Source: Candidatus Thorarchaeota archaeon | Lineage (GTDB): Archaea > Asgardarchaeota > Thorarchaeia > Thorarchaeales > Thorarchaeaceae | DNA length: 64,000 nt | Direction of reading: 5' to 3' | Assembly: GCA_011364905.1 (NCBI GenBank) | Contig: RDNZ01000008.1 | Coordinates: 4,401 to 68,400, forward strand | Shown here: positions 42,101 through 54,558 of the stretch, piece after piece | Layout: each line of letters begins with the position of its first letter | How positions within the stretch are numbered: position 1 is the stretch's first letter | Program-made: the position numbers and the translations under genes | The notes under the pieces: model-generated | What the model was told of the DNA's origin: nothing | Seen by the model: the letters and a program-made list of their open reading frames with translations, nothing else | Database searches by the model: none

Positions 42101-44812
42101 GTGGTCAATTTTGATGTCCTTCTTATACTGGAAGTTGACTGCCTGTTCGCCAAGTGTCAGAAATAGCTGTGGATTTTTCTGATTGTTATATTGAGTTTTA
42201 ATCCATGCATCCGATCTTGCAGTATTTGAAATCCGAACCTCATCAACTATTGCATCGAGATATGACGTTCCACCTGGGTTATCGGACCTGCGGCCAATTC
42301 TAACCGGTCGAGCTGGGTCGTTCGTAGATGCTGGGATCCCGGTTGTCACCTCATCAACTAGCTCACCATTCAGGTAGAACCTGGCAAAGACTGAAGGGTA
42401 GAAGACTCCAACAACGTGGTACCATTGACCAGCATCGACCCGTTCATAACCAACAGTGTTGGTATTTACACCATCTGGGCTATACCGAAACATGACCCAC
42501 CCTGAAGGACTAATGGAAGAATCATCATCAAAACTGATGTCCCATCCTCGATAACCTGATTCGCCGGACTTGACTACAAGATAGTCATTATCTATGAAAT
42601 TCGCCTTGAACCAAGCTTCAACGGTGAATGCTCCAGTCATCTGCAATTCTGTTGGATCTCCAAAGTCTATGTAGTCATTCACGCCCTCCAGATCGATGGC
42701 ATCTCCAAAATACCCGCCGACGCTATCAGTAGAAGTCATTGTTCCATACGTCGTCCCGTCAAGATTGTGGGATGTGCTATCCACAATCTGAGGTTGATGC
42801 GGTAGATAGTCGGCTTGAGAAGAGTCCCACTGTGGTTGCGAAGGGTTGTCATTCAGATGCCAGACAGCAGAATAGCCCGAATCCCATACAGCCTCCGGAT
42901 TCTCTTGGCTTCCAAGATTCTCATCACCATAAACCATGACAATTGTTGTGTCTTCTACTGACGACAGATGAGGAGCTTTTACCCAACAAACCAGATGTGC
43001 ATTCGTTCCATCTCCCTGCTTGTCAAACAAATCCAAATCGTATGGAATAACTTGACCATTATACAGAAATGCGATATCGTCACCATCTGGTTGCGCATTA
43101 AGGTGAAGGTCCTGGTCCCATATATCTACAAGGACCGGGAAGTCTTGAAGATCCGAAACAACTTTGGTGTGGTCGATGACGATGTTCTTGCTAAAGCTGA
43201 AGCTGGGGATTGTATCAGATGCTTCTGAATCAGTGAAATCTACGAAAAGCCTGGCGAGGTCTGCTTGCGCAAATCCTGATGAGCCCTTTATTTGGTTGTA
43301 CGCATATTGCTGGTTCGAATATGCATAATCAATCATTATACAGATGTAATTGCCCCTCTGCCAACCCGGTCGTGAAACAACCTCCTGGATAAGGGATGAT
43401 ATATCCGGAGTGTCATACCTCCCATTTGCTGTCCACGTTGTAGGATGCCAATATACGCTCGTGTTCACCCAATCATACCTGTCTGGAAGAAGGGGGTACC
43501 CACTGGTGAAGGCAGCAACATTGTCTTCATCAGCTACGTAGACACGCATTCCTGGAAAACCAGTTGAGTCACTTACTGCTTCCACTCGCAGGTTCGCTGA
43601 AGTAATTGATGCTCCTTGAGGTACATACAGTGGAAACTGAAATCCAACTTGATACGCAAAGGCATCACTCCAATCGCTTCCAAAAGTCGTGGGAACATCA
43701 GCACCAACATCCAACCACCCATTATTACCGTAGCCGTCGAGATCGACTCCCCCAGACCCCCCATTTGAATCAGGGGCACTATAGCAGTCTCTGTTAATGC
43801 CATCTGGAACATATGGATTCACACTCCCTTGTGTTGAACCAGTCACGCGAGCACCATTAGCAAGAAGATCAATCTGCTCAGGAAACGGACGTACAGAGAG
43901 TCTTAGCTCTATCTCATCGATGAACACCTCATGATCTGCAGTACTGGGATTGCCATTGATATCTGTCCCAAGTCCTATATTGAAAAGTAATGCAGTCGTT
44001 ACTGGCAACGACTCAAAGTATGATGAAGGAACCGTGGCACTAGCCTGAAGCCATGTGTCCATAGGTGTACCAAGCCCAAACACGTGGTACTTTGAAACAT
44101 AGCCCTCAAGACTAGTTGTGATGAATACCTCATCATTCAGAGTAGAGGTGCTTGAAACATAATATTGAAAGCTAATTTCTGCTGAGTAGACATTCCTCCA
44201 AGGAATGGGGACCTGTTGACTCATATAGAATCCGTTGGTGGGATTGACGGTTGCCCCGCTATCTAGATTACCATCGAATCTCCAACCTGAACTCGCATCA
44301 TACCCAGCACCAGCTACGCGATTGATTTCAAAATAGCCATGCTGAGGGTGCTGGGTCCCACTGGGAACTGCGTCATTCTTCACAAATGTCCAAGCATCCG
44401 GGATAAAGAAGGGGTCGTAGTTATACTCCGGATGGTCTGTAAGAAACCAATGTTCCTCATGGTATGTATCGAGTTTTGAATTGACAAGCACATCATCGAC
44501 CCACATCGAGAGATGGTCAAGATCTGCTTCTAATCCCTCGGAACTCCAACCTAAAGGCGGATCAATGCCAACAAACGCTGTGTGCGAATAGTCAATTACA
44601 GAAGTTCCGCTTGCAACACTCAGCCCGTTGATGGTTCCAGGCAAGGGATTTCCATTCCCTGAGTTGGTGTCCTGCCAATCACTAGGGACAAAATAATCTC
44701 CTCCAGCTATGGGATTTTTATTAAATGAAAACCCATCATTGGTTATTGGACCACTTGCGAATGGGACCAAGAAGATTATAACAAATGCAAGAGCAATCCC
44801 TGCCTTTTTCAT
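27143..44812 (-). CDS. Giant type-I membrane surface protein (5889 aa) with multiple DUF2341-like/LamG-like modules
   Basis: Uninterrupted 17,670-nt ORF. Signal peptide MKKAGIALAFVIIFLVPFASG. ~540-aa head domain homologous to the smaller giant. Six canonical modules (FPVLVDI/FPVLIDI/FPLLIDI/FPMLIDI + DGDDI + VWHL + W..T.(Y/F)NNQ.NP) plus one divergent module. Long repeat array. TM AILFGVPIGAILLLGAVLWT (27860..27919). 238-aa cytoplasmic tail (27146..27859). Confidence 0.85.
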   Translation of the reverse strand: MKKAGIALAFVIIFLVPFASGPITNDGFSFNKNPIAGGDYFVPSDWQDTNSGNGNPLPGTINGLSVASGTSVIDYSHTAFVGIDPPLGWSSEGLEADLDHLSMWVDDVLVNSKLDTYHEEHWFLTDHPEYNYDPFFIPDAWTFVKNDAVPSGTQHPQHGYFEINRVAGAGYDASSGWRFDGNLDSGATVNPTNGFYMSQQVPIPWRNVYSAEISFQYYVSSTSTLNDEVFITTSLEGYVSKYHVFGLGTPMDTWLQASATVPSSYFESLPVTTALLFNIGLGTDINGNPSTADHEVFIDEIELRLSVRPFPEQIDLLANGARVTGSTQGSVNPYVPDGINRDCYSAPDSNGGSGGVDLDGYGNNGWLDVGADVPTTFGSDWSDAFAYQVGFQFPLYVPQGASITSANLRVEAVSDSTGFPGMRVYVADEDNVAAFTSGYPLLPDRYDWVNTSVYWHPTTWTANGRYDTPDISSLIQEVVSRPGWQRGNYICIMIDYAYSNQQYAYNQIKGSSGFAQADLARLFVDFTDSEASDTIPSFSFSKNIVIDHTKVVSDLQDFPVLVDIWDQDLHLNAQPDGDDIAFLYNGQVIPYDLDLFDKQGDGTNAHLVCWVKAPHLSSVEDTTIVMVYGDENLGSQENPEAVWDSGYSAVWHLNDNPSQPQWDSSQADYLPHQPQIVDSTSHNLDGTTYGTMTSTDSVGGYFGDAIDLEGVNDYIDFGDPTELQMTGAFTVEAWFKANFIDNDYLVVKSGESGYRGWDISFDDDSSISPSGWVMFRYSPDGVNTNTVGYERVDAGQWYHVVGVFYPSVFARFYLNGELVDEVTTGIPASTNDPARPVRIGRRSDNPGGTSYLDAIVDEVRISNTARSDAWIKTQYNNQKNPQLFLTLGEQAVNFQYKKDIKIDHNKVAADLTGFPVLIDIYDSDLHSKVQPDGDDIMFTSNGRSLPHELELFDQQYNSTHAHLVAWVRADISSVSDTIISMYYANSAMGAKESPEEVWRNQYQGVWHLGESPSVGKPAPQIIDSTYNNNDGTTYGTMLEEDKVPGLIGNAIDFDGSNDYIDCGDTASLAVGYNDFVMSLWFATSDLDAPLANKGAIGTDAYRYMLSVTSSGTIKAEIDDNSASPGKISIYSASALNDGLWHYAAMVREGNLLHLYIDGSEVPTSPVDITGYGSINSIEPFLIAACDNYDNAGAPNLFLSAKIDEVHVLSSTTTSEWILTEFNNQNNPSSFYSIGIEQEVTVPQEVPLGFMYKKDIVIDHTKVTADLYGFPVLIDLFDSDLRFDVQSDGDDIVFVKDGWILPHEIELFEQSYNSTHGHLLAWVRTDLSASSDTVLSMYYGNPNSNSLENPHGVWDTSFAAVWHLSEDPADTVYDSTSNSNDAVGLPIGTEPTLQTGKFDGCSEFYGEGTNERIEAPHSTSLVLSSDMLVEAWVHTNNTDPTSDVIVAKWGAVGHRNYWLGKLDSSTFAFYVDNTQSVTAPISLVNDGKWHHVVGVANAGTSELLLYVDGVERNSAPYSGTTQTGTSVLQIGNNPGSTGFIQEWDGRIDEVRVSSSYRSPDWITTEFNNQNDPESFYTVKEETMLGETYEFSRQITVTTGSEPVTAGYSTSVTFDHAALVASGKSQADGDDMRIMYWNGFSLIELDRVLDSDSSWDSAATKVWFRIQSDIPSSTADDNYYLYYGDPSVSSPPDNHANVFQFYDGFESGDLNSWDGSYTDIGDSLSVTTEQANTGTYSAKGVVDNQAAAQAMIWKDFSDKTSLFARVHFYLPATFSTTDHVTIMQFVDTSPVWVNQLSLTIYSDMSLYLWNAIASEAYGYGTTSPISKGSWHMLEIQAKFSTTDGEARLWVDGNLEVEETGINLGSEGVNRFCTVFYWASPQTEPNTVYADDVFLRPYVSPEPTTSLGIEINQATQYNYEKDIAIDHTKVGTDLNDFPLLIDIFDADLRTKAQSDGDDIIFKSGEIILPHEIESFEQSYNDTHAHLVAWVKTDLSSSVDTVITMYYGNSVVGNQENVAGVWDSNYRGVWHLSENPTGPLYDSTSNSNDGTGYNLQSDDQVEGQIDGSIDFDNTQDYINCGNDTSLNVGSNDFSFSLWFNYDGVNMGTLAGKGAVLMAKRYRISIESGPGMLMAAIDDNTVAKNIYSTSTYGDNLWHLVSMIRDGNYLRLYIDGAEDPNSPIDITGYGSLDEVESFYINAFRSEIGGTLGYWSTANTDEVRVANTALSPEWIATEYSNQYSPSSFYTIGPEKTSQAEHQPNVNTAEFKYRKNLIVDHAMVAEDLTDFPMLIDIFDTDLRTDVQADGDDIMFKNGYTWCPHEIVYFDQTYNGTHAHLIAWVKTDLSSSIDTTITMYYGNPDLTNQENPSAVWGSYVGVWHLDQSPAGTVLDSTHYNNDGATLGSMSGSDLVQGQIGSGFELDGIDDMINVSESSSLDSIKSGGTLSIWINWVNSSDGGYQRIMTTSDRFILNPSPPPTLIQDDGFEWAVQPDGDNFFYPWGGNDIDYNLVTNPFTNNVWHHLVVTLDYSTKTVEIYLDGTQLILAIENVPTQWTQLASLGDWLWGGNQLDSASRFLGRFDEIQVSPAIRSSGWILTEYNNQYNPSSFYSIESEEQVSGNGYIFTTSSESSITVGTELSLGVQTSILSYADDFTQGTSFSIVNGSLPIWTANVMISPPPELEAVSFEISYPEGEWWPFSVASPSGVERTFAADWTCFDGKLIVGSTAIDEYGMWKIKFLDRNHVLDMQIGPSGGPYSTTGQFAVGENIQFHVWSSGTIGSTISLELTDPTGSTWYAGSTTFQGAGFTLPYYHRKYLAISHDNVMENLVNFPVLVDIYDTDLRTDVRADGRDIAFTIGEKTLSHEIELFDQTYNLTHAHLVAWVNVPVLSGSTDTVISMYYGNPLAPIVYDSGPVWDSGYLGVWHLSESGTGLLGEYRDSSQYKNDGQGGDGDSLFVPTQTVGKIGAGQEFNNLDGYYDFIDCGDSPLWDIDGYQITLEAWIQHDITPNTHVYGIMNHKGWYDGYALYINYGGGSTIKPTFSLPGDTHQLVGANDVTGGSWHQIVATYDGSLMRIYVDGVQDPNVLTKTNAIEPSSFEKDFWIGQGDQPQNKTWSAEWDGQIDEVRVSDVTRSAGWIQTQFSNQYNPSNFYSIGLEENIGYSESASINLDTSAPAGVWHATTRYSDSNSDVNLRTGIFDRTFIVKRGTSLSLTAPGDAILDGISTKLIGEQLYVEFDLQDTLTSTMVSGATVSMNWSVSGTPTDVQLNDYGDGRYGKTLNTSDLGGYGRWRLDVQASHSFYSDATDFLYLDLSHRTFMTYEPPNDTPYGDNFEIRLTLRDKFDSTPLTGATLSCNATILGIPTDYGNGTYLVTVDSTGFSSGEHTFRFIATPSTTYLLSSSIDVQFNYRPIATETIPLSPDAVEAPWGQQVNTSIYWFDIDHAGIGVDSSTISISPIVPIQVDETSIGNYLITIDVSSFMPGTYYFDLTCSKQNYQSSTTTISILILPHRTTPSVNYNSTIPVGTDVYFDVLWMDLDLDSVPVSPSNLTQVSLDWGTGSDSHSVLGFWVDTSGWAAGSYSINATISATASPRFYMDSYIIIHLEIRKLGVYVSWEPLEPFPNGNDFVMFVHVNVSEPDSPIDGTAIAGLDQTYFSARNETGGLYTFESFLNLGDGRYQITIDNTRFLEGQYEIIVFVDFQPTENYTDSSTTQVSFTYRPILTYLSSSNYPSVTTSFDTNVTITLSYVDIDHVQNITTGIMTSEGALIEWQHIGSGTYEVLIIVQGWDLGAHEVNITADASGYQAKTLTFQILVQIAYAYARSSVSIIDLPLGDTAVFYADYWDITHNEAIIGATLNHNWTYPLSISWTGDQYRIELPSIDTDSLGTYLVVLNFSKGPNYQFGYINISIILRTHLTEFRLASATEPTSYNAMVNISVYCGDLDNDLGIIDAPVNLSVYGDSGWISSTFKNDTTLGNGYYIISFAATNLGTSGIYDITVYFNWTGPVPKFYDNSVVSSVRIVGEASDLELIVSAEPTPYLENLSYTYFYSELYSGNGISNVSAPAGNVFIYVEFVSQSFSPSLFSIKEDSGNLGHYTIEFNSTIFAEPGVYTMVVHVNWTETQEPFYGNWTDTVSVRVIPRSTLINLVPPESTPYGVNATFSFSFDDIAGSGSYSIANSSQMRVTIGLADYSLTYNTSARQFHVSFNTSILGAPLGTRQFTIGVSWIGAPFYANLTGRNVIISVRYRETEFDYSTISPTAYGDNVTLHLTFNDITPGQSQTIDDGFITLYNGSGAIPVTEYSFMPLGNGEYDVELKTTYFTKPGTYTITVAMSTSHFYYDIVTASRTLSLRYRLTVLLIEPVEETAYNNSLQVVFHYSDVLTLSEIGNSSTPTTVWILNGSSWFFVSVWRGAPEDYLLTIDTHNQNLEINKEYVLWIQVSYPDSSPFYLSAEAFVSFTLQERATILEVTESPEPTQYLDSVDFAVYYQDSSSSAGIAGATITLAVGGTNLVEGIDYSLLSPFDGSYYISINTTVLGPAGSSVNLELGASWIDNEPYYSTSTLSLTLTVTERNSITEIVSSTTQVKFLENVTFTIRYSDETSGKAIQFSKDQLLIYNEGTLLSSNDFAMVYLGSGYEISINSSVLAAGLIDNQNITFYIDWHNTVAPYYADGRASSWVTVANRIGIVIRGATPTVPIYDNMTLNFTYVDDSNGAGINDAIVVFDCLSPSGLAEGTDFWIYRNSGDYSIFVDTTSLGSIGTFTFSLRLLWNPTVAPYYRNTTTIFLQGSVRLIQLQLTNEEPVPSTVPINDNVSVILNLQDLDHFVPISGAESLFSVEYKTNASGPYIWSITPISPGIYNLTVDCYDAGTTVTNALIITLALPDYQTVQVQVPFQIRLRQGELNELVSQKPYYSETTFVIVELVDTDANNTPISDATLSITWPDIGYTPYYTNLGNGQYNITLTTSSLDAGLYTLMVGALRSDYFISDISVPVEIQRIPTGLILPQTIPDVYWGDDISFWAIFNDTKAGTVISGATLTYQFGTLSGSLTEIVSDQGNYTVTVDTGNLVLASTYVISITATFNNYVTNTSQVIVNVLKLPTTVSIISSAQQEVFKGTPVNVTVYVNNTYRNIPLLGATVTVRWVLQGPQSISLSPIPAKDGYYTCFIDTNDFLVGQYSITIEASGTNYLRSVAPASIKVKQIATVLQLDALTSSYSGQSFNWSDTIRIGVYVLAPSLNESDPFSTGLANCTVLWSLSGTTFTGEFLNGTSMEGPGYFYFDFETWNYDVSTYTLRITAYPNIGMFAYSSNLTTLIIKPIETSVESTYLSPKIWGWTGWVDITYWDLLFDRGIAGATVLVEWDGGESTSTYVANGTYQVFINASLVSPGIYPVSVRFLMDNYKSGTGVFTLNVKEVPTDIAAFAPTINQIDHDVLNLQIPYGDTISLTLFYNDTWYNRGIMGATETKCVILGSSVPDGDNLLIEEITNGNYSLLIDTTRWTVSSDPYRLILNFHLTNWSRATLDIHLTIIDVPTALYIDPSSVTMNYGQVFSIWVLYYDTWEGHMNASIVGASINATSLDTRFVDVSLNQSDPSRPGWYEIRVRSNRAEGTALVSIILSKDNYVSISALVTVSVEPSEFDLLVEQAILFGVPIGAILLLGAVLWTRLFSVPKQLRAIRKMVRTIAKGKIPKPPDGVLSRQEIVANLFNDIAEPIGITKIASSMPSEPIASDVPEIEELLIQLSILSKLSPEELEDFKLDVSKMKLSEQVSFVKEVINQEAIKQARLERKPMEVILEETAAKARAVLAGEEIEVVVESKPLEERIIPPEVEEPEEAIPEPVEFEEVESAEMLDEDELKQIRKKLESVGIKGSELETIMDQARELPRSLAEELLRSILGKGGEEE
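27930..35230 (-). repeat. Array of ~100-aa beta-sandwich-like (Ig-like) repeats, extracellular stalk of the 5889-aa protein
   Basis: Periodic strand motif of aromatic/aliphatic residues followed by D/T-rich turn and I.GA (e.g. IYWFDIDHAGIGVDSS, VTITLSYVDIDHVQNITTG, AVFYADYWDITHNEAIIGATL, VNISVYCGDLDNDLGIIDA). Collinear with the array in the smaller giant. Confidence 0.6.
35362..43198 (-). repeat. Array of ~350-aa DUF2341-like + LamG/ConA-like modules inside the 5889-aa gene (protein-level tandem repeats)
   Basis: Module starts read on the reverse strand near 43198, 42115, 41050, 40000 (divergent, lacks the FPVL motif), 39060, 38005 and 36385. DNA identity between modules is only moderate, so the duplications are old. 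A ~200-aa non-module segment sits between modules 6 and 7. Confidence 0.7.
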
Positions 44813-44967
44813 ACTACCTGCTCCTAATTACTACCACTGCGATAGAACAGCATATTATCAAAATATCAAGAAATAAGATAATCTAGTATAGTTGAATACC
44901 GCTTTTTGGAAAAGAAGGCAAAAAATTGAACAACCGTGAATCTAAATGAAGACCCTTTTTGAATACT

Positions 44968-45600
44968 TCACTCCAGGACAAACTCAATCCTGTTTCTTTC
45001 AATCAACTCATTAAGAGCGGGAGGATTCAAAGGCTGAATGTCTTTTTTAATTTTTGATACTAATCTTGTTGTTTCCGGCACTAGCAACTCGCGCAGCGAT
45101 GCACATAAGAAGAGAGGGGTAATATCAAGACGTTTCAGTGGGTTTTCCAAAAGATTGAACCTTTCGAGTTTCCAACATTTGGAGATGGGAGATACATCCA
45201 GATTCACTAACCGATTCTTCTCCAGACTGAGCGTTACCAGATTCTTGCATTCAGAAATTGCAGAAAGATTGACTCTTAGAATTTGATTATGGCTCATATC
45301 AAGTTGCTCTAGATGGGTACAATAACGTAGCGAATCCAAGTTTACTATCTGTAGATTATTGTCGCTTACATTCAATTGCCGAAAGTTTGCGCAGAAAGCC
45401 AAGACAGTCAGGTCAACTGTCATTAAATGATTACCACAGAGATTCAGGTCTTCAAGATCATCAAGCTGGTCGAGTTCTGTCAGGTCGATAGCAACAATTG
45501 AGTTCTTTGAGAGATCGACTATTTTTGAGCTAGAGGAGATTTGGATTTCTTTATTGGTGCCATCTGATAGGGTGACATTAACTTCTATCACTTTCGCCAC
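44968..45600 (-). CDS. Leucine-rich repeat (LRR) protein, cytosolic
   Basis: About eight 22-23-aa repeats of L..L.L..N.L..(V/L)(D/N)L (LEDLNLCGNHLMTVDL, FRQLNVSDNNLQIVNL, LEQLDMSHNQILRVNL, LVTLSLEKNRLVNLDV, LERFNLLENPLKRLDI). No signal peptide or TM helix. GTG start. Same strand as, and 155 nt upstream of, the giant gene. Confidence 0.8.
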   Translation of the reverse strand: MAKVIEVNVTLSDGTNKEIQISSSSKIVDLSKNSIVAIDLTELDQLDDLEDLNLCGNHLMTVDLTVLAFCANFRQLNVSDNNLQIVNLDSLRYCTHLEQLDMSHNQILRVNLSAISECKNLVTLSLEKNRLVNLDVSPISKCWKLERFNLLENPLKRLDITPLFLCASLRELLVPETTRLVSKIKKDIQPLNPPALNELIERNRIEFVLE

Positions 45601-45772
45601 TCTTTGTGAAACTGGATTAGTTCACTTCGTCTTGTTAATTCTCACATTTCAATATATGGCGACTCACCTTAACTACGAATAAACTGGCACAGACTCACGA
45701 TATTCCATTCTTACTTGAGTATTTTGACATCAAAGCTTCTGTGTTCCTTGTCTTCAATGGTTTAAGAAAGAT

Positions 45773-45780
45773 TTTAATAT
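45773..45780 (+). promoter_or_regulatory. Putative TATA box (TTTAATAT) for GTPase-like paralog 1
   Basis: The TTTAATAT core is shared with the paralog's upstream region, ~70 nt before the ATG. The downstream leader motif TTGAGGAAGGCGTGGTTG (45823..45840) is also conserved. Confidence 0.3.
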
Positions 45781-45848
45781 ATAAGAATAGTAATTAATTA
45801 CACCTCATAGTGTTGATTATTATTGAGGAAGGCGTGGTTGTCGTAAAG

Positions 45849-47090
45849 ATGCAGATTCCGGGTACAAACATTGACGTAAGTCTCAAGGTCAATCGCATAT
45901 ACGTTGCAGACCCGGCTGTAAATCGAAGACTAAAATTCGCCGGTAGGTCCTTCAAAGAAATCATGGAGGAAGTACAACGATTTACCTACTTGCGAGGATT
46001 CAACGTTCCTCTCCCAATTCTAAAGTTTATTTTGAAGAGGATAGGCCTTCCTGAAGTCGATATAATTCCTGGAGAAGATGAGCTAACAAAGGAGGATCTG
46101 CTCGAACTCTCAAGAGCGTTGAATGTTCTCGATTCACTAAAGGATGAATTTCTCTCGCCAACTGGCAAAAGTGGCATTCCCGACGATATTCAAAGCACTC
46201 TAATACGTTCCTCTCCAGAGCTTGAAGACTTGAAGATGGATGTTCCAGCTCCTCAAGAAACAAGTATTTGGGATATTCCTGCAAGCGAGGAGGTCAAAGG
46301 GTTGGTCTTTTCTTTCCATGGTGAGAATATCCCAAGCACCTCCACGCCAAGAACACAATCAGCGGATGAAAACAAATCTGTGAAATTCATATGGGATGAT
46401 CCAGAGGTAGTTGCATCATTGGAAGATGTATCTCAAGATGAGAAATCAATGCCTGAGGGCGTACCCGAAATTCTCGACCTGAAAGTCCTGTTTCTTGGCG
46501 AAGAAGGAGTCGGTGTGAACAGCATTATCTTTGAGTCAAATCTGAAGCTTGGAAACGACTATTCTTCTCTTGATTTACCCCCAACTAGACCATTCACATT
46601 CAGCAACATAATTGAGCGAAACGATGCAAATGTTAGAGTTGATGCTTGGACATTTCAGAAGAGTACTGAGGCAAAAGTTCCAAAGACGGAGTTTTACACT
46701 GGATCTGGAATTGTTGTGCTGGTTTATTCGGTGGCAGAGCGATGGAGCTTCGACAGCCTTGACTTCTGGATTCGAGAAGTTTCTAACGCCTTCCTTATAC
46801 CACCACCGATAATAGTCGTCGGAAATAAAACCGATCTCCGTGATCATCCAGTCTATGATGATGATGATGAGGTTGAAGTCCCAGTTTCAACAGAAGAAGC
46901 CCGTGAGTATTGCGAAAAAGTCGCAAAGACGCTTGGGGAAAATGGACAGTCTCATCCGCTGTTCTTCATTGAAACCTCAACAATAACGGGACAAGGAATC
47001 ACCGAGCTATTGAATAAAATCATCGACTTTTGGCAAAGCAATGAGCGCCCAAGCATGCCAGCAACCGAGCAACACGCACCAACACTCTAA
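45849..47090 (+). CDS. Ras-superfamily small-GTPase-like protein with degenerate P-loop and switch II, plus ~215-aa N-terminal extension (paralog 1)
   Basis: C-terminal domain: G1-like FLGEEGVGVNS (Lys replaced by Val, Ser/Thr by Asn), G3-like DAWTFQ (DxxG Gly replaced by Thr), intact G4 VGNKTD, G5-like ETSTITGQG. Start set at the ATG at 45849 (MQIPGTN) by alignment with the paralog; the 13 upstream codons of the ORF track have no counterpart. Confidence 0.75.
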   Translation: MQIPGTNIDVSLKVNRIYVADPAVNRRLKFAGRSFKEIMEEVQRFTYLRGFNVPLPILKFILKRIGLPEVDIIPGEDELTKEDLLELSRALNVLDSLKDEFLSPTGKSGIPDDIQSTLIRSSPELEDLKMDVPAPQETSIWDIPASEEVKGLVFSFHGENIPSTSTPRTQSADENKSVKFIWDDPEVVASLEDVSQDEKSMPEGVPEILDLKVLFLGEEGVGVNSIIFESNLKLGNDYSSLDLPPTRPFTFSNIIERNDANVRVDAWTFQKSTEAKVPKTEFYTGSGIVVLVYSVAERWSFDSLDFWIREVSNAFLIPPPIIVVGNKTDLRDHPVYDDDDEVEVPVSTEEAREYCEKVAKTLGENGQSHPLFFIETSTITGQGITELLNKIIDFWQSNERPSMPATEQHAPTL

Positions 47091-47176
47091 AGCTGGTTTC
47101 TTCAGGCATTGAATAGATAATCGAAGACTACATTTAATTCTCTCAACAAACAACCCCGCAAGATATCAGAAAAGTA

Positions 47177-47184
47177 TTTAATAT
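47177..47184 (+). promoter_or_regulatory. Putative TATA box (TTTAATAT) for GTPase-like paralog 2
   Basis: Identical 8-mer ~55 nt before the ATG. Conserved leader TTGAGAAAGATGTGGTTG (47211..47228) ends 7 nt before the ATG. Confidence 0.3.
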
Positions 47185-47235
47185 GTTCAAATATTACATA
47201 ATAATTACTCTTGAGAAAGATGTGGTTGCTTAGAT

Positions 47236-48480
47236 ATGCAGATCCCCAGGACTAACATTGAGGTAACGCTCAAGACCAATGGCATCTATCTCAGAGACCC
47301 GGCTACACATCGCAGGCTGCGCATAATTGGTAGATCTTTCAAGGAAATATTGGAGGATGTGCAACGGTTTGTATATATGCGCGGATTCAAAGTTCCTCAG
47401 CCAATTATCAAATTCATCTTGAAGCGAGTAGGTCTTCCTGAAGTCGATATCATTATTGAAAAACATGAGTTGACAGACGATGACCTTCAGGAGCTTTCGA
47501 AAACTCTCGACGTTATTGATAGTCTAAAGGACGAGTTCCTCACTCCATCTTACTCTCTCAAGGCAATTGATGAAACTGATAGTGGCATTTCAGAAATACC
47601 ACAAGAACTACCAGATTTAACAGCAGACATTCCAGCGCCTCAAAAAATGAGTGTCTGGGACATTCCTGTAGACGAGGAGATCAAGGATCTTGTTTTCTCC
47701 TTCCACCCAGAGAACATATCAACAAGTGTTCCCACCCCACGAACTCAGACGTCTGCGGACGAACAACCGATGAAATTCATCTGGGATGACCCTGCAGTTG
47801 CGGCAGCCATCGCAGAAACATCCGATGACGAGCAACTATCACCTGAAGTCATTTCAGACCTGCAAGACCTGAAGGTTTTGTTCCTAGGTGAAGATGGGGT
47901 TGGTGTGAACAGCATTATCTTTGAGTGCAACCTGAAGCTCGGGAACGATTATTCATCCCTTAGTTTGCCACCTACCAATCCATTTACATACAGTAACATA
48001 ATTCAAGACGATGGAACAAGTGTTCGTGTTGATGCTTGGACATTTGAGAAAAGTATGGAAGCGAAAGTGTCAAAGACAGAGTTCTATTCAGGATCCGGCA
48101 TCATAGTACTTGTTTATTCAGTTGCTGAGAGATGGAGTTTTGATAGCCTTGATTTTTGGACTCGAGAAGTTTCCAATGCCTTCCCAATTGCACCACCTAT
48201 AATTGTGGTTGGAAATAAGACTGACCTCCGTGACCATCCAGTTTATGACGAGGAAGATGAGGTGGACATCCCAGTGTCCACGGAAGAGGCTCGTGACTAT
48301 TGCTTCAAAATGGCTATGACTCTTGGAGAAAGTGGGCGGTCTCATCCTGTGTTCTTCATTGAAACTTCAACAATTACTGGACAAGGCATTACTGAACTTT
48401 TGAAGAAGATTGTTGACTTTTGGAAAGCAAATGAACGACCAAGCATGCCTGCCACTGAGCAAGATGTCCCAACAATCTAG
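47236..48480 (+). CDS. Ras-superfamily small-GTPase-like protein with degenerate P-loop and switch II (paralog 2)
   Basis: Same architecture and same substitutions: FLGEDGVGVNS, DAWTFE, VGNKTD, ETSTITGQG. High identity to paralog 1 along the full length, including the C-terminal peptide NERPSMPATEQ. Confidence 0.75.
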   Translation: MQIPRTNIEVTLKTNGIYLRDPATHRRLRIIGRSFKEILEDVQRFVYMRGFKVPQPIIKFILKRVGLPEVDIIIEKHELTDDDLQELSKTLDVIDSLKDEFLTPSYSLKAIDETDSGISEIPQELPDLTADIPAPQKMSVWDIPVDEEIKDLVFSFHPENISTSVPTPRTQTSADEQPMKFIWDDPAVAAAIAETSDDEQLSPEVISDLQDLKVLFLGEDGVGVNSIIFECNLKLGNDYSSLSLPPTNPFTYSNIIQDDGTSVRVDAWTFEKSMEAKVSKTEFYSGSGIIVLVYSVAERWSFDSLDFWTREVSNAFPIAPPIIVVGNKTDLRDHPVYDEEDEVDIPVSTEEARDYCFKMAMTLGESGRSHPVFFIETSTITGQGITELLKKIVDFWKANERPSMPATEQDVPTI

Positions 48481-51045: not shown

Positions 51046-51837
51046 GTGCGGATTAGAAGAACGAAGGGACACACTCCAATGCATGAGCGACTTCAATCAG
51101 AACTCTATGCTTCAATTGCTACACTTGACCAGCTGAAAAAACTCTATGACTTTGGTGCAGTGGATATAAGGTCCTATCAGAGGGAGTCCGAAGCCCTTCT
51201 TCAGGATGTTCGCACTCAGATTGAGAATCTTCGACGTTTGGGTCTTGATATTGGGAGATTTGTCACAAGCGAACGGATAATCGAGATATTTCCTGAGGCT
51301 GCAAATCTACTCCGACTTGGTACTCACGCTCCAAGACGGTCTCTTCAGGGCATGACATTGGACCAGTTCTACGATTACATTGGCCTTGCTATACTTGACG
51401 TGGCAACCGAGAACTCATCAAAGGGCCTCATGGGCTTAGCAGAGCTTATTGTAGAGGTCGTCCGGCGACTTCCTGAGATTGAATCAGTGACCTACAATGA
51501 TGTCATTGAATCTGTTAATCGTGTTGCTGAAAACGGGCTGATTCCTGGTATTCGAACCCTGCGAGGAGGAGTCAAAGTCGTGGAGCTTCGACCGCTAGAA
51601 CTTCGGCGAGACCAAGCTGATGTGATCAATCTTGCAGCTACAAAAGGATACGTTTCTGTCGAGGAGGTCATAATGCAGCTCAAATGGTCCGAAGATCATG
51701 CGCGTCAAGTTCTTTCAAGTTTGGTGGATGCAGGCATGGCTGTAGCTGATATCCGCTTCTCCACAGGTGGCCGGTACTATTTCCCTGGCTTAAGGTCTCG
51801 TGAAAGCACCGATTCACGAAACACAGGTGCTTACTGA
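51046..51837 (+). CDS. ESCRT-II subunit, EAP30-domain protein (Vps22/Vps36-like)
   Basis: Tandem winged-helix C-terminus aligns with eukaryotic SNF8/EAP30: LRPLELRRDQADVINLAATKGYVSVEEVIMQLKWSEDHARQVLSSLVDAGMAVADIRFSTGGRYYFPGL versus P.EL..D...VL.LAE..GYVTV.E....LKW...RARQVLE.LL.EGLAW.D......YW.P.L. GTG 51046 or ATG 51079 could be the start. Confidence 0.8.
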   Translation: MRIRRTKGHTPMHERLQSELYASIATLDQLKKLYDFGAVDIRSYQRESEALLQDVRTQIENLRRLGLDIGRFVTSERIIEIFPEAANLLRLGTHAPRRSLQGMTLDQFYDYIGLAILDVATENSSKGLMGLAELIVEVVRRLPEIESVTYNDVIESVNRVAENGLIPGIRTLRGGVKVVELRPLELRRDQADVINLAATKGYVSVEEVIMQLKWSEDHARQVLSSLVDAGMAVADIRFSTGGRYYFPGLRSRESTDSRNTGAY

Positions 51838-51839
51838 CT

Positions 51840-52577
51840 CTATGATGATGAAATTATAATCGCTCCTTTCTTCTCATCAATCCACTCAGCTAGTCCTTTC
51901 TTGACCATAAGGGCAAGAACTATGTGAATGTCCTTCTCTGGGAGGTTAGCAAAATCCTCCTCGACTTCTTGAATGACGATTGATTTCACATCTAGTCTAA
52001 GTTTTCCTGTCTTCAATGCCCACTGGTACACTATGTCCGCCCAATCTTCAAGAGGTCGCCAATAGACTCTTAGCTGGCGCTGTTTCTTGTCGACCCACTC
52101 AGCAACTTCTTTGTTCACGAGGACTTCTGCTATATCCCTGAATGAATCTACTTTGTTTCTCAGATCCTTGAATGGTGGTTCACTGATGAACGTAGCTAGA
52201 GACAGAATGTGCACCTTGTTATTCTCTGTCCACTCCAAGAGATAATCTGCCCATTCCTCTGCCCAAAGATTTCGGTCCTCCTCTCTGGTTGGTATTCCAT
52301 ACATCCATTCAGTTTCCTCAATATCTCCCCAACTTGGCATCAGAGAATCGGGTTCAACGATCTTAGTTTCAAGTTCCGCATCATTCGCAGTTTCGATTTC
52401 TGTTTTGGGCTTGACTACTTCCGTAGTTTCCTCAACTTCGACAACAACTTCTGGAGAATGAGTTGTGTCCTCAGTGATGGTTCTATCAATATCTGGGGAT
52501 TCAATTTGTTCTTGTTTTACGGGCTTGGCTGACTTCTTTTGTTTGGCCTTCTCCCGTTTTCTCTCCTTGACACCCAA
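51840..52577 (-). CDS. ESCRT-II subunit, Vps25-like (two winged-helix domains) with possible K/E-rich N-terminal extension
   Basis: NKEVAEWVDKKQRQLRVYWRPLEDWADIVYQWALKTG and FANLPEKDIHIVLALMVKKGLAEWI match the Vps25/EAP20 pattern (EWLDK....I.WRRPEEW..LIYQWV..SG). A TTG start at 52577 lies 1 nt after the vps4 stop codon. The first ATG is at 52340 (MPSWGD). Confidence 0.75.
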   Translation of the reverse strand: MGVKERKREKAKQKKSAKPVKQEQIESPDIDRTITEDTTHSPEVVVEVEETTEVVKPKTEIETANDAELETKIVEPDSLMPSWGDIEETEWMYGIPTREEDRNLWAEEWADYLLEWTENNKVHILSLATFISEPPFKDLRNKVDSFRDIAEVLVNKEVAEWVDKKQRQLRVYWRPLEDWADIVYQWALKTGKLRLDVKSIVIQEVEEDFANLPEKDIHIVLALMVKKGLAEWIDEKKGAIIISSS

Positions 52578-52580
52578 ACC

Positions 52581-53798: not shown

Positions 53799-53940
53799 CT
53801 GAGTTCATGTGAACAGTATTCGTAAGGTGTTAAGAATTTCTGTCACATCCGAGTACATACATACACAATATCATCTGCGAACTGCGAAGGTTTAAACGGT
53901 ATCTCCCCACTGGATGAGCTGAGTATCTCTCTTGGAATAG

Positions 53941-54558
53941 GTGATAGAATTGGGTTCAATTAGAAAGGCATTCTCCTGGGGCAGAAAAAAACCAGATATA
54001 GGTGAGGTCTCAAGCCGACTCAGGATCTTATCCAAGCAGCTAGCGCGCCAAAGGAACAAATTGGAAAAAGAGGAGAGGGACGCTAAATCGCGAGCAGTCC
54101 GAGCGCGAAAAGCTGGTCAATTGGAAGCCTATCGAACATATGCTACTGAGATGGTTCGATTTCGCCGATATGCCCTTTCGGTTGACAAGTCGCGCCTGCA
54201 AATTCTGAAGATTCTAGCTCATCTAAATCGCGCTCAGACATCAGCGAAGACACAATTAGCATTGCAGGAGGTCGCAAAGATTCTTGGAATGTTGGGGGAC
54301 GGTTCCGACGCCACTAAGGTAGTAGCGAATGTAGATGAGATTGCTCGTCGCCTCGAGGAGTTCGAGATTGAAGCGAGTATCTCCGATGAGGCTCTGGATT
54401 CAACAATGGAAGTGTCATCTGAAGACTTGACATTTGCATATCAGGAAATCGATGCTGAAGCTGGGCTTGCTGATACTCCGGCTGTAACAAGACCTGCTAG
54501 TGAATCCGAATCTCTTGAAGAAGATATCAAAGCGTTAGAACGCGAACTTGGAGTGTAG
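53941..54558 (+). CDS. ESCRT-III (Snf7-family) protein, probably Vps2/24/46-like
   Basis: 205 aa. Basic helical hairpin N-terminus (LSKQLARQRNKLEKEERDAKSRAVRARKAGQLEAYRTYATEMVRFRRY), acidic C-terminus ending in the amphipathic ESLEEDIKALERELGV. GTG start (no nearby in-frame ATG). Divergent from vps4. Confidence 0.75.
   Translation: MIELGSIRKAFSWGRKKPDIGEVSSRLRILSKQLARQRNKLEKEERDAKSRAVRARKAGQLEAYRTYATEMVRFRRYALSVDKSRLQILKILAHLNRAQTSAKTQLALQEVAKILGMLGDGSDATKVVANVDEIARRLEEFEIEASISDEALDSTMEVSSEDLTFAYQEIDAEAGLADTPAVTRPASESESLEEDIKALERELGV

What the first reader, a model, noticed from the sequence alone, without database searches (positions are those of the whole stretch)
45849..48480. Tandem paralogous small-GTPase-like proteins with the same inactivating-looking substitutions
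Both copies have a Ras-fold C-terminal domain in which the P-loop reads G(E)(E/D)GVGVNS instead of GxxxxGK(S/T); the Lys is replaced by Val and the Ser/Thr by Asn. The switch II DxxG reads DAWT, so the Gly is replaced by Thr and no Gln follows. The guanine-specificity NKxD (GNKTD) and G5-like ETST are intact. Identical deviations in both paralogs argue for selection rather than decay. The proteins are probably pseudo-GTPases or have non-canonical nucleotide handling. Both carry a conserved ~75-aa N-terminal domain (MQIP.TNI.V.LK.N.IY..DPA..RRL...GRSFKEI.E.VQRF.Y.RGF.VP.PI.KFILKR.GLPEVDI), an acidic linker, and a conserved C-terminal peptide NERPSMPATEQ without a prenylation Cys. I do not recognise this N-terminal domain.
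Basis: partly seen in the sequence, partly recalled or inferred. Interest (0 to 1): 0.7.

Follow-up and report, generated by a model that had tools for sequence, protein, structure and literature searches.

The report
Lysine-less Rab-derived pseudoGTPase pair, Thorarchaeota
Two neighbouring genes in an Asgard (Thorarchaeota) genome encode Ras/Rab-like proteins that have lost the residues needed to grip and split GTP yet are strongly conserved, carry an unrecognised N-terminal module, and always sit beside a small leucine-rich-repeat gene (and usually giant surface-protein genes), so they probably act as non-enzymatic adaptors.

Summary
Two tandem genes (45849..47090 and 47236..48480, + strand) encode 413- and 414-aa proteins that are 69% identical. 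Each has a Ras-fold C-terminal domain (Pfam Ras E~1e-12; Foldseek TM 0.7-0.8 to Rab/Rho/Ras).

Gap-free alignments confirm P-loop Lys->Val and Ser/Thr->Asn. The comparators were solved Rabs, canonical Rab-likes from the same genomes, and a 33%-identical full-length relative that still reads GVGKQS. The Trp aligns with the Trp of Rab "WDTAGQ", so DxxGQ is T-F-x-K-S.

The proteins belong to a Thorarchaeota-restricted family of about 120 sequence clusters under strong purifying selection (G-domain dN/dS ~0.05). The family is nested among Lys-bearing relatives, so the Lys loss is derived. NKxD and most of G5 are retained.

The N-terminal domain models confidently but has no sequence or fold match. 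The "linker" holds the most invariant motifs. The whole N-module also exists as a stand-alone paralog.

A cytosolic LRR gene is divergently adjacent in almost every locus. In this subfamily one or two giant LamG membrane-protein genes follow it.

Verdict: a new pseudoGTPase variant, probably a non-hydrolysing adaptor working with the LRR protein. Nucleotide binding is untested.

The parts
45849..47090 (+). Paralog A, 413 aa (possibly 418 aa from GTG 45834): N-module plus Rab-derived pseudoGTPase domain
   Evidence: ORF. Pfam Ras 1.7e-12, Roc 2.6e-7. Identical to NCBI protein P0031 (EAX87_04305, Candidatus Thorarchaeota archaeon).
47236..48480 (+). Paralog B, 414 aa: same architecture, 69% identical to A
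   Evidence: AF2 models.
47236..47451 (+). B N-terminal domain (aa 1-72; three strands then two helices). A equivalent 45849..46064.
   Evidence: AF2 pLDDT above 90 over aa 1-70. No Pfam, PDB sequence or PDB fold match. Only 33 hits among 1.84e9 representative proteins.
47470..47547 (+). B long helix ending in the conserved L-x-D-E-F-L-[ST]-P motif (aa 79-104). A equivalent 46083..46160.
   Evidence: Helix 81-102 in the AF2 model. The motif is kept in the distant tier as D-S-F-M-A-P.
47650..47745 (+). B short-motif block 1: W-D-[IV]-P-x-x-E-E...[FY]-x-F-H-x-E-N-[IL]...T-P-R-T (aa 139-170). A equivalent 46263..46355.
   Evidence: Invariant P144 E147 E148 L152 F156 H157 E159 N160 T167 P168 R169. 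Predicted disordered, pLDDT below 50. The F-x-F-H-x-E-N-I-P core is shared with stand-alone paralogs.
47773..47793 (+). B short-motif block 2: K-F-I-W-D-D-P (aa 180-186). A equivalent 46383..46403.
   Evidence: W183 and D184 are invariant. The stand-alone paralogs have F-D-W-E-E.
47869..48432 (+). B Ras-fold domain (aa 212-399). A equivalent 46479..47042.
   Evidence: Pfam Ras/Roc. Foldseek hits to Rab11, Rab8, RhoA and KRAS at E~1e-10. dN/dS 0.04-0.06.
47887..47913 (+). B degenerate P-loop G-E-D-G-V-G-V-N-S (Lys->Val224, Ser/Thr->Asn225). A equivalent 46497..46523 (GEEGVGVNS).
   Evidence: Register fixed. Family tally. The loss is derived.
48031..48054 (+). B switch-II remnant D-A-W-T-F-E-K-S. 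W268 corresponds to the Trp of Rab WDTAGQ, so DxxGQ becomes T-F-E-K-S. A equivalent 46641..46664.
48211..48243 (+). B retained G4 motif G-N-K-T-D-L-R-D-H-P-V. A equivalent 46821..46853.
   Evidence: GNKTD in 111 of 117 members. GNKTDLRD is identical in canonical Thor Rab-likes.
48361..48381 (+). B G5 remnant E-T-S-T-I-T-G (canonical ETSAKTG). A equivalent 46971..46991.
48430..48462 (+). B conserved C-terminal peptide N-E-R-P-S-M-P-A-T-E-Q, no Cys. A equivalent 47040..47072.
   Evidence: [ED]RPSMP in 102 of 120 members. pLDDT below 50. Absent from the distant tier.
44968..45600 (-). Divergently transcribed cytosolic LRR protein (210 aa), the inferred partner
   Evidence: Pfam LRR_8 4.6e-14. No hydrophobic segment. 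The orthologue is directly upstream and divergent in every locus with enough upstream DNA except one second-copy locus. It is also present at the intermediate-tier locus L055 (33% id, E 4e-35).
27143..44812 (-). Giant-1, a 5,889-aa LamG/DUF2341 membrane protein downstream of the LRR gene (context; functional link inferred)
   Evidence: ORF. N-terminal hydrophobic segment, TM at aa 5627-5651 and a ~238-aa cytoplasmic tail. Its 5' end lies next to the LRR gene in loci L001-L004, L007, L009-L011, L013, L014, L017, L019-L021, L024, L025, L028 and L031.
15201..27146 (-). Giant-2, a 3,981-aa membrane protein overlapping the giant-1 stop by 4 nt, with a homologous cytoplasmic tail (context)
   Evidence: tails 37% id, E 2e-42.

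Best explanation
A and B are members of a Thorarchaeota-specific family of Rab-derived pseudoGTPases.

Shown. Each has a Ras fold that descends from the canonical ~190-aa Thor Rab-like GTPases. Each lacks the P-loop Lys (Val/Ile), the Mg2+-ligand Ser/Thr (Asn here), the switch-I Thr, and the switch-II Asp, Gly and Gln. NKxD and most of G5 are kept. The whole protein is under strong purifying selection.

Shown. The Lys loss is a single derived event, nested inside Lys-bearing relatives that share the same N-domain/linker/Ras architecture.

Inferred. The domain no longer works as a Mg-GTP-hydrolysing on/off switch. It serves as a constitutive protein-binding module, possibly resembling a nucleotide-free or GDP-like state. 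Asn at the Ser17 position is the classic dominant-negative type of change (established Ras/Rab knowledge).

Inferred from synteny. Its partner is the small cytosolic LRR protein encoded divergently next to it. This is a split LRR + Ras-like pair.

Inferred, weaker. The N-module is a small novel domain, a helix, and two short conserved motifs in a disordered acidic stretch. It recruits further partners or mediates pairing between paralogs. The complex may act at the cytoplasmic tails of the giant LamG surface proteins encoded in the LRR operon.
For: Ras fold.

Motif states and register. Family-wide P-loop tally among the 117 of 120 sequences that matched the pattern: GE[ED]GVG[VI]NS 76, GExxVG[VI]KS 33, GERGVGISS 7, GEKGVGVGS 1, none canonical.

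Descent from Thor Rab-likes: shared GNKTDLRD, VTTEEG and ETS.TG signatures.

Purifying selection: dN/dS is 0.11 for the whole gene between A and B and 0.04-0.06 for the G domain. About 120 full-length clusters are 44-97% identical.

Derived loss: NJ tree with T3 100/100, T2+T3 89/100 and all tiers 100/100, rooted on canonical Rab-likes; every outgroup has Lys at position 7 except two with Met.

LRR partnership: the LRR orthologue is divergent and adjacent in all loci with at least ~1 kb upstream except L018, a second copy in a MAG whose other copy (L019) has the LRR. It persists when downstream genes differ (L004). It is also present at the 33%-identical intermediate-tier locus L055, where the LRR is likewise 33% identical.

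N-module as a functional unit: the stand-alone paralog family P0121-P0140 keeps the domain, the helix and both motifs and is encoded beside full-length genes. Invariant columns concentrate in a region AF2 predicts as disordered.

Cytosolic location: A, B and the LRR protein have no hydrophobic segments. Both giants have a single C-terminal TM plus homologous tails.
Against: Nucleotide binding was not and cannot be tested here.

The P-loop glycines (G218, G223), S226, NKxD and ETS are almost invariant. Class-i pseudoGTPases that bind nothing have all five G motifs degraded, as reported for p190RhoGAP pG1 in PMC5593906. This family's retention therefore argues that some ligand is still bound.

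106 of 119 members keep a Lys either one position after the canonical site or at the switch-II Gly position, which could mean relocated phosphate contacts.

The LRR and giant links rest only on gene order in related MAGs; no interaction was modelled. The giant genes are absent at the intermediate-tier locus. The distant tier has neither LRR nor giants.

The full-length AF2 model is of modest quality (mean pLDDT 61).
Confidence: 0.6

Rival explanations
1. It is a genuine but non-canonical nucleotide switch. The guanine pocket (NKxD, ETS) and the P-loop backbone still bind GDP/GTP. The lost Lys is functionally replaced by a relocated Lys, either at P-loop position 8 (GVKS clade) or at the switch-II Gly position (WTFxK in the window's clade). 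This would be analogous to WNK kinases, which moved their catalytic Lys. The replacement Lys or Arg might instead be supplied in trans by the paralog or the LRR protein. The protein would then cycle, or be constitutively nucleotide-bound (class ii/iii pseudoGTPase).
For: Near-invariance of G218, G223, S226, GNKTD and ETS under strong purifying selection. Lys at one or other alternative position in 106 of 119 members: N+K 72, K+non-K 26, both 7. The distant tier keeps GK[x][ST], so nucleotide binding is probably ancestral to the architecture.
Against: 13 of 119 members have no Lys at either alternative position. The covariation follows clades, so it reflects few independent events. The Mg2+ ligands (Ser/Thr, switch-I Thr, switch-II Asp) are all missing. 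The aromatic residue that stacks on guanine has no conserved counterpart, and one clade has a 9-residue deletion in switch I. GNKTDLRD is inherited verbatim from the canonical ancestor, so part of its conservation may be structural.
Confidence: 0.27
2. It is a split ROCO-like system. The LRR protein plus this Roc-like domain form a dimerisation-activated GTPase, as in bacterial and archaeal LRR-Roc-COR proteins. The tandem paralogs would provide the dimer.
For: Pfam Roc is above its gathering score (31-32 bits against 27). The LRR gene is invariably adjacent. Paired paralogs recur, either full + full or full + N-module only.
Against: No COR domain is detected in A, B or their neighbours. The Ras/Rab profile scores much higher than Roc (48 against 32 bits). 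The closest relatives are Rab-likes. The catalytic P-loop Lys is absent. Many genomes have a single copy.
Confidence: 0.07
3. The genes are decaying duplicates (pseudogenes), or the result is an alignment or annotation artefact in which the true P-loop Lys lies elsewhere.
For: None beyond the unusual motifs.
Against: The reading frames are intact and dN/dS is 0.04-0.2. The same deviations occur in about 120 clusters across Thorarchaeota MAGs. The register is fixed by a gap-free alignment to Lys-bearing full-length relatives. No other GxxxxGK[ST] occurs in either protein.
Confidence: 0.01

Closest known systems
Canonical Thorarchaeota Rab-like small GTPases (~190 aa; e.g. the class represented by Thor-Rab of SMTZ1-45, PMC10933270)
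   Same: Same Ras fold and the nearest sequence relatives (26-31% id over the G domain). They share GNKTDLRD, VTTEEG, ETS.TG and [FY]-x-G-x-G...VYS motifs, and neither has a C-terminal prenylation Cys.
   Different: The canonical proteins have GDGSVGKT, TIG and WDLAGQ and consist of the G domain alone. The window proteins lack Lys, Ser/Thr, the switch-I Thr and DxxGQ. They add a ~210-aa N-module, a 3-aa insertion in P-loop/helix 1, a 5-aa insertion before strand 6, and a conserved C-terminal peptide.
[quoted passage not shown]
   Same: [quoted passage not shown]
   Different: There is no sequence relationship; this is an independent archaeal origin from a Rab-like ancestor. Class-i examples such as p190RhoGAP pG1 have lost all five G motifs, whereas G4 and most of G5 and the P-loop glycines are retained here. 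From my own knowledge (not checked here), Rnd and RGK proteins keep the P-loop Lys, which this family lacks. I found no paper combining 'pseudoGTPase' or 'pseudo-GTPase' with Asgard or describing an archaeal one.
Distant and intermediate tiers of the same architecture in Thorarchaeota (T1: P0148-P0170; T2: P0141, P0143)
   Same: The same N-domain (profile E 1e-10 to 1e-4 in T1, about 1e-31 to 1e-19 in T2), an acidic linker carrying the D-x-F-[LM]-x-P motif, a C-terminal Ras domain lacking DxxGQ, and a retained NKxD. T2 also has the divergent LRR neighbour.
   Different: They keep Lys at the canonical P-loop position (GK[SHRAKQ][STC] in 20 of 22). T1 lacks the F-H-x-E-N-I-P and F-x-W-D-D motifs, the ERPSMP tail, the LRR neighbour and the giant neighbours.
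LRR + Ras-type pairings in eukaryotes and prokaryotes (ROCO LRR-Roc-COR; SHOC2-MRAS). This analogy is from general knowledge.
   Same: A leucine-rich-repeat solenoid is genetically coupled to a Ras-superfamily domain. SHOC2 is among the better PDB sequence matches of the LRR neighbour (E~3e-14).
   Different: The LRR matches are generic; TLR3 and LRRC proteins score higher. There is no COR, no kinase and no phosphatase. The LRR is a separate 210-aa polypeptide, and the Ras-like partner lacks the residues for GTP-dependent switching.

Membership tests
Ras superfamily (small GTPase fold, Pfam PF00071 / PF08477) | Sequence match above the curated threshold, and the six-stranded sheet/five-helix G-domain fold | tested here: met
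   PF00071 at 47.7 and 48.9 bits (cut-off 21.6); PF08477 at 31.3 and 32.2 bits (cut-off 27). AF2 G domain pLDDT ~80. Foldseek probability 1.00, TM 0.65-0.79 to Rab, Rho and Ras structures.
Catalytically competent small GTPase | G1 P-loop GxxxxGK[ST] | tested here: not met
   GE[ED]GVGVNS. Lys->Val and Ser/Thr->Asn, with the register fixed. None of 117 family members is canonical.
Catalytically competent small GTPase | G2 switch-I Thr and G3 DxxG(Q) | tested here: not met
   No conserved Thr aligns with the TIG of canonical relatives, and one clade deletes 9 residues there. The G3 equivalent is T-F-[EQP]-K-S.
Catalytically competent small GTPase | G4 NKxD and G5 SAK guanine-specificity motifs | tested here: met
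   GNKTD in 111 of 117 members. G5 reads ETS[TS][IV]; Ser is kept, Ala->Thr/Ser and Lys->Ile/Val, so G5 is only partly canonical.
Catalytically competent small GTPase | Measured GTP binding and hydrolysis | not testable with these tools
   Requires recombinant protein.
PseudoGTPase (definition in PMC5593906) | [quoted passage not shown] | tested here: met
   The fold is met and G1-G3 are degraded (see above). About 120 clusters are conserved, with dN/dS 0.04-0.06 in the G domain.
PseudoGTPase class i / ii / iii | No nucleotide binding / binding without catalysis / retained catalysis | not testable with these tools
   The sequence is ambiguous. The Lys and the Mg2+ ligands are lost, but G4, G5 and the P-loop glycines are retained.
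Rab family | C-terminal prenylatable Cys motif and RabF motifs (IGVDF in switch I, KLQIWDTAGQE, RFrsiT) | tested here: not met
   There is no Cys in the C-terminal 30 residues; the tail is NERPSMPATEQ(H/D)(A/V)PT(L/I). Switch-I and switch-II RabF equivalents are absent except the Trp. The best PDB and Pfam matches are nevertheless Rabs, so it is Rab-derived but not a Rab.
ROCO proteins | Roc domain immediately followed by a COR domain in the same polypeptide | tested here: not met
   No COR hit at E<=1 in A or B, and the protein ends ~15 residues after the G domain. The LRR is on a separate polypeptide.
Known N-terminal domain families (Pfam-A; PDB by sequence; PDB by fold) | Significant match of residues 1-105 | tested here: not met
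   Pfam gives none at E<=1 apart from a sub-threshold TbsP_N hit in the linker. The best PDB profile hit has E 0.035. Foldseek's best hit has E 0.33 and TM below 0.4 with a pLDDT-85.5 model. AlphaFold DB could not be searched.

The most novel reading that the evidence does not exclude
These would be the first archaeal pseudoGTPases. In this reading the Rab-derived domain has no canonical P-loop Lys or Mg2+ site, yet still binds a guanine nucleotide through G4/G5 using a relocated Lys (a WNK-kinase-like solution). It forms an obligate complex with a dedicated LRR protein and, through its novel N-module motifs, couples the cytoplasmic tails of giant LamG adhesin-like proteins to intracellular machinery next to the ESCRT locus. 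That would be an Asgard LRR/Ras-type signalling or adhesion adaptor that evolved independently of eukaryotic ROCO and SHOC2-RAS modules.
Probability: 0.2. Interest if true: 0.8.

Novelty: new variant of a known kind. Interest (0 to 1): 0.6.

Why it matters
Asgard small GTPases are studied as forerunners of eukaryotic membrane-trafficking switches, and so far attention has gone to canonical Rab-, Arf- and Rag-like proteins. This family shows that Thorarchaeota also evolved a pseudoenzyme offshoot.

It offers a stepwise natural series: canonical GKT, then GK[x]S, then G[VI]KS, then GVNS. In this series the catalytic machinery erodes while the protein stays under tight constraint.

The family also gained a new N-terminal module and a dedicated LRR partner, beside giant surface proteins and the ESCRT cluster. 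This gives a concrete, testable system in three respects:

- How GTPase folds are repurposed as scaffolds outside eukaryotes.
- What an LRR/Ras-like pair does in an archaeon.
- How giant archaeal surface proteins are connected to the cytoplasm.

The N-domain and its two short motifs are uncharacterised and restricted to this lineage.

Tried and rejected
1. Looked for a true P-loop Lys elsewhere or an alternative register. Rejected for the canonical position. However, 28% of family members have Lys one residue later (GVKS).

2. Rejected: the Trp aligns with the Trp preceding DxxGQ in Rabs and in Thor Rab-likes.

3. Pseudogene decay. Rejected by dN/dS and family conservation.

4. N-domain identification failed by every route: Pfam, a PDB profile search (a first attempt was swamped by the G domain), and Foldseek against the PDB with a pLDDT-85.5 model.

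5. ROCO membership. Rejected: no COR.

6. ESCRT linkage as functional. Not supported as specific. The EAP30/Vps25/Vps4/Snf7 cluster lies 2.5 kb downstream here and in close relatives, but is absent next to the 44-49%-identical members. It may simply be inherited gene order.

7. LRR identity of the recurring 211-216-aa neighbours of the distant tier. No Pfam LRR hit.

8. Lys covariation between P-loop position 8 and the switch-II position. The pattern is present but clade-structured, with 13 of 119 exceptions. It is kept only as a hint.

9. Literature searches for prior descriptions (Asgard + pseudoGTPase; Asgard + Rab-like + LRR/Roc; Walker A lysine; giant LamG proteins) found nothing specific.


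Full report
**1. What is in the window**

Two + strand ORFs lie in tandem: A at 45849..47090 (413 aa from MQIP) and B at 47236..48480 (414 aa). A longer ORF for A begins at GTG 45810. A GTG at 45834 would give MVVVKMQIP, the N-terminus annotated in orthologues P0031, P0048 and P0059. A and B are 69% identical across their whole length (287/414).

Each gene is preceded, within about 50-80 nt, by an AT-rich TTTAATAT-type element. The duplication therefore seems to have included the promoter region; calling this an archaeal TATA-like box is my inference. Protein A is identical to an NCBI protein of a Candidatus Thorarchaeota archaeon MAG (EAX87_04305).

**2. The C-terminal half is a Ras-superfamily domain**

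- Pfam Ras (PF00071) scores 47.7 and 48.9 bits against a 21.6 cut-off. Roc (PF08477) scores 31-32 bits against 27.
- phmmer against PDB chains finds Rab9, Ypt6, Ypt1, Rab7, Rab8 and Rab11 at E 6e-10 to 3e-7.
- An AlphaFold2 model of B gives pLDDT ~80 for residues 209-400. Foldseek aligns that domain to Rab11, Rab8, RhoA, KRAS and Cdc42 structures with probability 1.00 and target-normalised TM 0.65-0.79.

**3. Motif states and register**

Four independent HMMER alignments to solved Rabs place GEDGVGVNS on GDGGVGKSS / GEQGVGKTS / GNSGVGKSC without gaps. This gives Lys->Val224 and Ser/Thr->Asn225.

The same register comes from a MAFFT alignment with canonical ~190-aa Rab-like GTPases taken from the same Thorarchaeota MAGs (loci L033-L046). 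Those carry GDGSVGKT, TIG, WDLAGQ, GNKTDLRD and ETSAK.

The decisive test is the 33%-identical, fully collinear relative P0143. There LGEEGVGKQSI aligns gap-free on LGEDGVGVNSI.

W268 matches the Trp that precedes DxxGQ in Rabs, so DxxGQ corresponds to T269-F-E-K272-S273. The switch-I Thr has no counterpart, and one clade deletes nine residues there.

G4 is intact (GNKTD, in fact the whole GNKTDLRD of the canonical relatives). G5 is ETSTI instead of ETSAK. So G1, G2 and G3 are degraded, G4 is intact and G5 is partly intact.

**4. Not decay**

A database search found 123 homologues. The 120 listed are nearly all ~400-440 aa and collinear, at 44-97% identity. The great majority come from Thorarchaeota MAGs, with a few labelled Sif-, Odin-, Hod- or Hermodarchaeota or 'Promethearchaeota'.

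P-loop tally among the 117 sequences that matched the pattern:

| P-loop | Count |
|---|---|
| GE[ED]GVG[VI]NS | 76 |
| GExxVG[VI]KS | 33 |
| GERGVGISS | 7 |
| GEKGVGVGS | 1 |
| canonical | 0 |

Nei-Gojobori dN/dS is 0.11 for A against B overall and 0.04-0.06 for the G domain in paralog and orthologue pairs. Synonymous sites are near saturation. Invariant columns include G218, E219, V222, G223 and S226 of the P-loop, F270, the Y294-S295...R299-W300-S301 block, and L331-R332 after NKTD.

**5. Evolutionary polarity**

A profile of the N-domain was searched against 1.84 billion representative proteins. It found only 33 proteins at E<=1e-3. Besides the family itself (tier T3) these fall into two further tiers:

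- **T2** (P0141, P0143; 395-399 aa).
- **T1** (P0148-P0170; 420-565 aa).

Both have the N-domain, a long acidic linker and a C-terminal Ras domain. Named members are again Thorarchaeota MAGs.

T1 and T2 have Lys at the canonical P-loop position in 20 of 22 cases (GK[SHRAKQ][STC]). They already lack DxxGQ (W-[SCD]-F-D-x-A) and keep NKxD.

I built a neighbour-joining tree of G domains (186 columns, 36 sequences, 100 bootstraps), rooted on the canonical Rab-likes. Support is T3 100/100, T2+T3 89/100 and all three tiers 100/100. The Lys->Val/Ile change is therefore a single derived event at the base of T3. G[VI]KS is probably ancestral within T3, and the window's GVNS is a further step.

The series canonical GKT -> GK[x]S -> G[VI]KS -> GVNS is a stepwise erosion of the phosphate/Mg2+ site.

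**6. The N-terminal half**

Residues 1-72 model confidently as three strands followed by two helices (pLDDT above 90 over 1-70, mean 85.5 for 1-105). A long helix follows at 81-102, ending in L-x-D-E-F-L-[ST]-P. Nothing recognises it:

- No Pfam family.
- Best PDB profile hit E 0.035, a designed protein.
- Best Foldseek PDB hit E 0.33 with TM below 0.4.

Residues ~97-205 are predicted disordered (pLDDT below 50). Yet they contain the densest run of invariant columns in the family. These are W-D-[IV]-P-x-x-E-E-x-x-x-L-[IV]-[FY]-x-F-H-x-E-N-[IL]-...-T-P-R-T and K-F-[IV]-W-D-D.

A separate family of 140-196-aa proteins (P0121-P0140) consists of just this N-module, without a G domain. It has the domain, the helix, F-x-F-H-A-E-N-I-P and F-D-W-E-E. 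It is encoded next to single-copy full-length genes in the more divergent clade, for example L030 2100..2579, ACFE7R_05815/05820 and ACFFD6_05340/05350.

The module therefore behaves as an independent functional unit with short linear motifs. Gene pairs recur as full + full (window, L007, L008, L016) or as full + N-module only. This suggests, but does not prove, pairing through the N-module.

**7. Genomic context**

Immediately upstream and divergent is a 210-aa LRR protein (44968..45600, - strand; LRR_8 E 4.6e-14) with no hydrophobic segment. Its best PDB matches are generic LRRs, with TLR3, LRRC4B and SHOC2 among them.

tblastn across 32 related loci shows its orthologue directly upstream and divergent wherever about 1 kb or more of upstream DNA is available. 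The one exception is L018, a second copy in a MAG whose other copy (L019) has the LRR.

The pair persists around a 49%-identical member whose downstream genes are entirely different (L004). It also persists at the T2 locus L055. There the neighbour is 33% identical to the window's LRR over 206 residues (E 4e-35; LRR_8 6e-18), while the Ras-like gene is likewise 33% identical. T1 members have no LRR neighbour. The LRR/Ras-like pair thus predates the Lys loss.

In T3 the LRR gene is followed on the same strand by giant-1, a 5,889-aa LamG/DUF2341 protein (27143..44812). In the window giant-2, a 3,981-aa protein (15201..27146), follows with a 4-nt overlap. Each giant has an N-terminal hydrophobic segment, one C-terminal TM and a cytoplasmic tail of roughly 240-400 aa. 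The tails are 37% identical (E 2e-42). In the divergent T3 clade a second giant's C-terminal end lies convergent downstream of the Ras-like gene.

An ESCRT cluster lies 2.5 kb downstream here and in close relatives, but not next to divergent members. It comprises EAP30/Vps36-like 51046..51837, ESCRT-II/Vps25-like 51840..52577, Vps4 52581..53798 and Snf7 53941..54558. I treat that adjacency as possibly inherited gene order.

**8. Most likely mechanism**

- *Shown:* a Rab-derived fold has lost the Lys that contacts the beta/gamma phosphates and all three Mg2+/gamma-phosphate ligands, under continued strong constraint.
- *Established knowledge:* in Ras and Rab proteins Lys16 and Ser17 are required for high-affinity Mg-nucleotide binding. 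Ser17->Asn gives the classical dominant-negative, GEF-sequestering, GDP/empty-state protein.
- *Inference:* A and B do not cycle as GTP-hydrolysing switches. They act as constitutive binding modules, most plausibly in complex with the LRR protein.
- *Inference:* the N-module motifs recruit further partners or the paralog.
- *Speculation from gene order:* the complex may work at the tails of the giant surface proteins.

A weak hint from Foldseek is that many top matches are nucleotide-free GEF complexes or GDP forms, for example Rab8:Rabin8, Ara7:Vps9a, Rab1b:DrrA, KRAS:SOS and Rab11:SH3BP5. The score differences are small.

**9. What argues against a completely nucleotide-blind scaffold**

The P-loop glycines, S226, NKxD and ETS are almost invariant. 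Class-i pseudoGTPases such as p190RhoGAP pG1 have all G motifs degraded (PMC5593906).

106 of 119 members carry a Lys either at P-loop position 8 or at the switch-II Gly position: N+K 72, K+non-K 26, both 7, neither 13. This could reflect a relocated phosphate contact. However, the pattern tracks clades, so it counts as few events.

I therefore keep 'non-canonical nucleotide binder' as a serious rival at about 0.27. A split-ROCO reading fails on the absence of COR. Decay and artefact are excluded.

**10. Comparison and novelty**

[quoted passage not shown] Their class (i, ii or iii) cannot be assigned without biochemistry.

They are not Rabs: there is no prenylation Cys and the switch RabF motifs are absent. 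They are not ROCO proteins. They are unrelated in sequence to the eukaryotic pseudoGTPases.

Database names are 'hypothetical protein', 'Rab family GTPase', 'P-loop NTPase family protein' or 'GTPase SAR1 family protein'. Full-text searches found no paper describing an Asgard or archaeal pseudoGTPase, this architecture, or the LRR/giant association. The library does not cover most subscription journals.

I rate it a new variant of a known kind: a pseudoGTPase with a new N-module, a dedicated LRR partner and a documented stepwise loss series. Interest is 0.6.

Noticed in passing
window 15201..45600 (- strand): An apparent ~30-kb operon: LRR gene (44968..45600), then the 5,889-aa LamG/DUF2341 protein (27143..44812), then the 3,981-aa protein (15201..27146, with a 4-nt ATGA overlap). 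Both giants have an N-terminal hydrophobic segment, a single C-terminal TM and homologous cytoplasmic tails. The tails carry repeated E-L-x-x-L-R-x-x-L-x-x-x-G-[LI]-P-x-x-E-I-x-x-I-x-x-Q-A-[KR]-x-L-P-like helices (37% id, E 2e-42). Pfam finds nothing in the last 299 aa of giant-1 (its tail); the giant-2 tail likewise has no hit.
   Followed up: partly
window 51046..54558: A complete Asgard ESCRT cluster lies 2.5 kb downstream of paralog B: EAP30/Vps36-like (+), ESCRT-II/Vps25-like (-), Vps4 with MIT + AAA + Vps4_C (-), and Snf7 (+). An alpha/beta hydrolase, a MarR-like wHTH gene and an AspRS-like gene lie in between. The arrangement is conserved in close relatives but not next to divergent family members.
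   Followed up: partly
L030 2100..2579 (+); also L025 ~6054..6332; proteins P0121-P0140: A stand-alone paralog family (140-196 aa) consists only of the N-domain, the helix and the F-x-F-H-A-E-N-I-P and F-D-W-E-E motifs, without any GTPase domain. It is encoded beside single-copy full-length genes in the divergent clade.
   Followed up: yes
window 48430..48462 and 47040..47072: The conserved C-terminal peptide N-E-R-P-S-M-P-A-[TV]-E is proline-rich and sits near a Vps4/MIT-containing locus. From memory it loosely resembles proline-type MIT-interacting motifs. This is an untested lead, not a finding.
   Followed up: no
window 45765..45850 and 47160..47236: Both paralogs are preceded by a similar upstream stretch: a TTTAATAT-type AT box, then TTGAG[GA]AAG...GTGGTTG. 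In A it reads through as V-V-V-V-K-M (possible GTG start at 45834). In B the homologous stretch contains a TAG stop, so B starts at the ATG.
   Followed up: partly
L049 4416..7868 (-): Next to the distant-tier member P0157 (canonical GKSS P-loop), the divergent upstream gene is a 1,150-aa HEAT/ARM-repeat protein with a faint nSTAND NTPase hit. This is another solenoid neighbour, but it is seen in only one lineage. Other distant-tier loci instead share a geranylgeranyl-reductase-like / AMP-binding / phosphoribosyltransferase block upstream, with unannotated ~102-aa and ~211-216-aa genes downstream.
   Followed up: partly
family alignment A1; proteins P0001-P0120: Clade-structured covariation. 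Members with Asn at P-loop position 8 have Lys at the switch-II Gly position (72 cases). Members with Lys at position 8 mostly have Gly, Gln or Asn there. 13 of 119 have Lys at neither position.
   Followed up: partly
L018 (MAG TM2M.152) versus L019: In one MAG the two paralogs are on different contigs. One copy has the LRR and giant upstream. The other has no LRR, but has the alpha/beta hydrolase and a giant-protein C-terminus downstream. This suggests the tandem pair can be split by rearrangement or by assembly.
   Followed up: no
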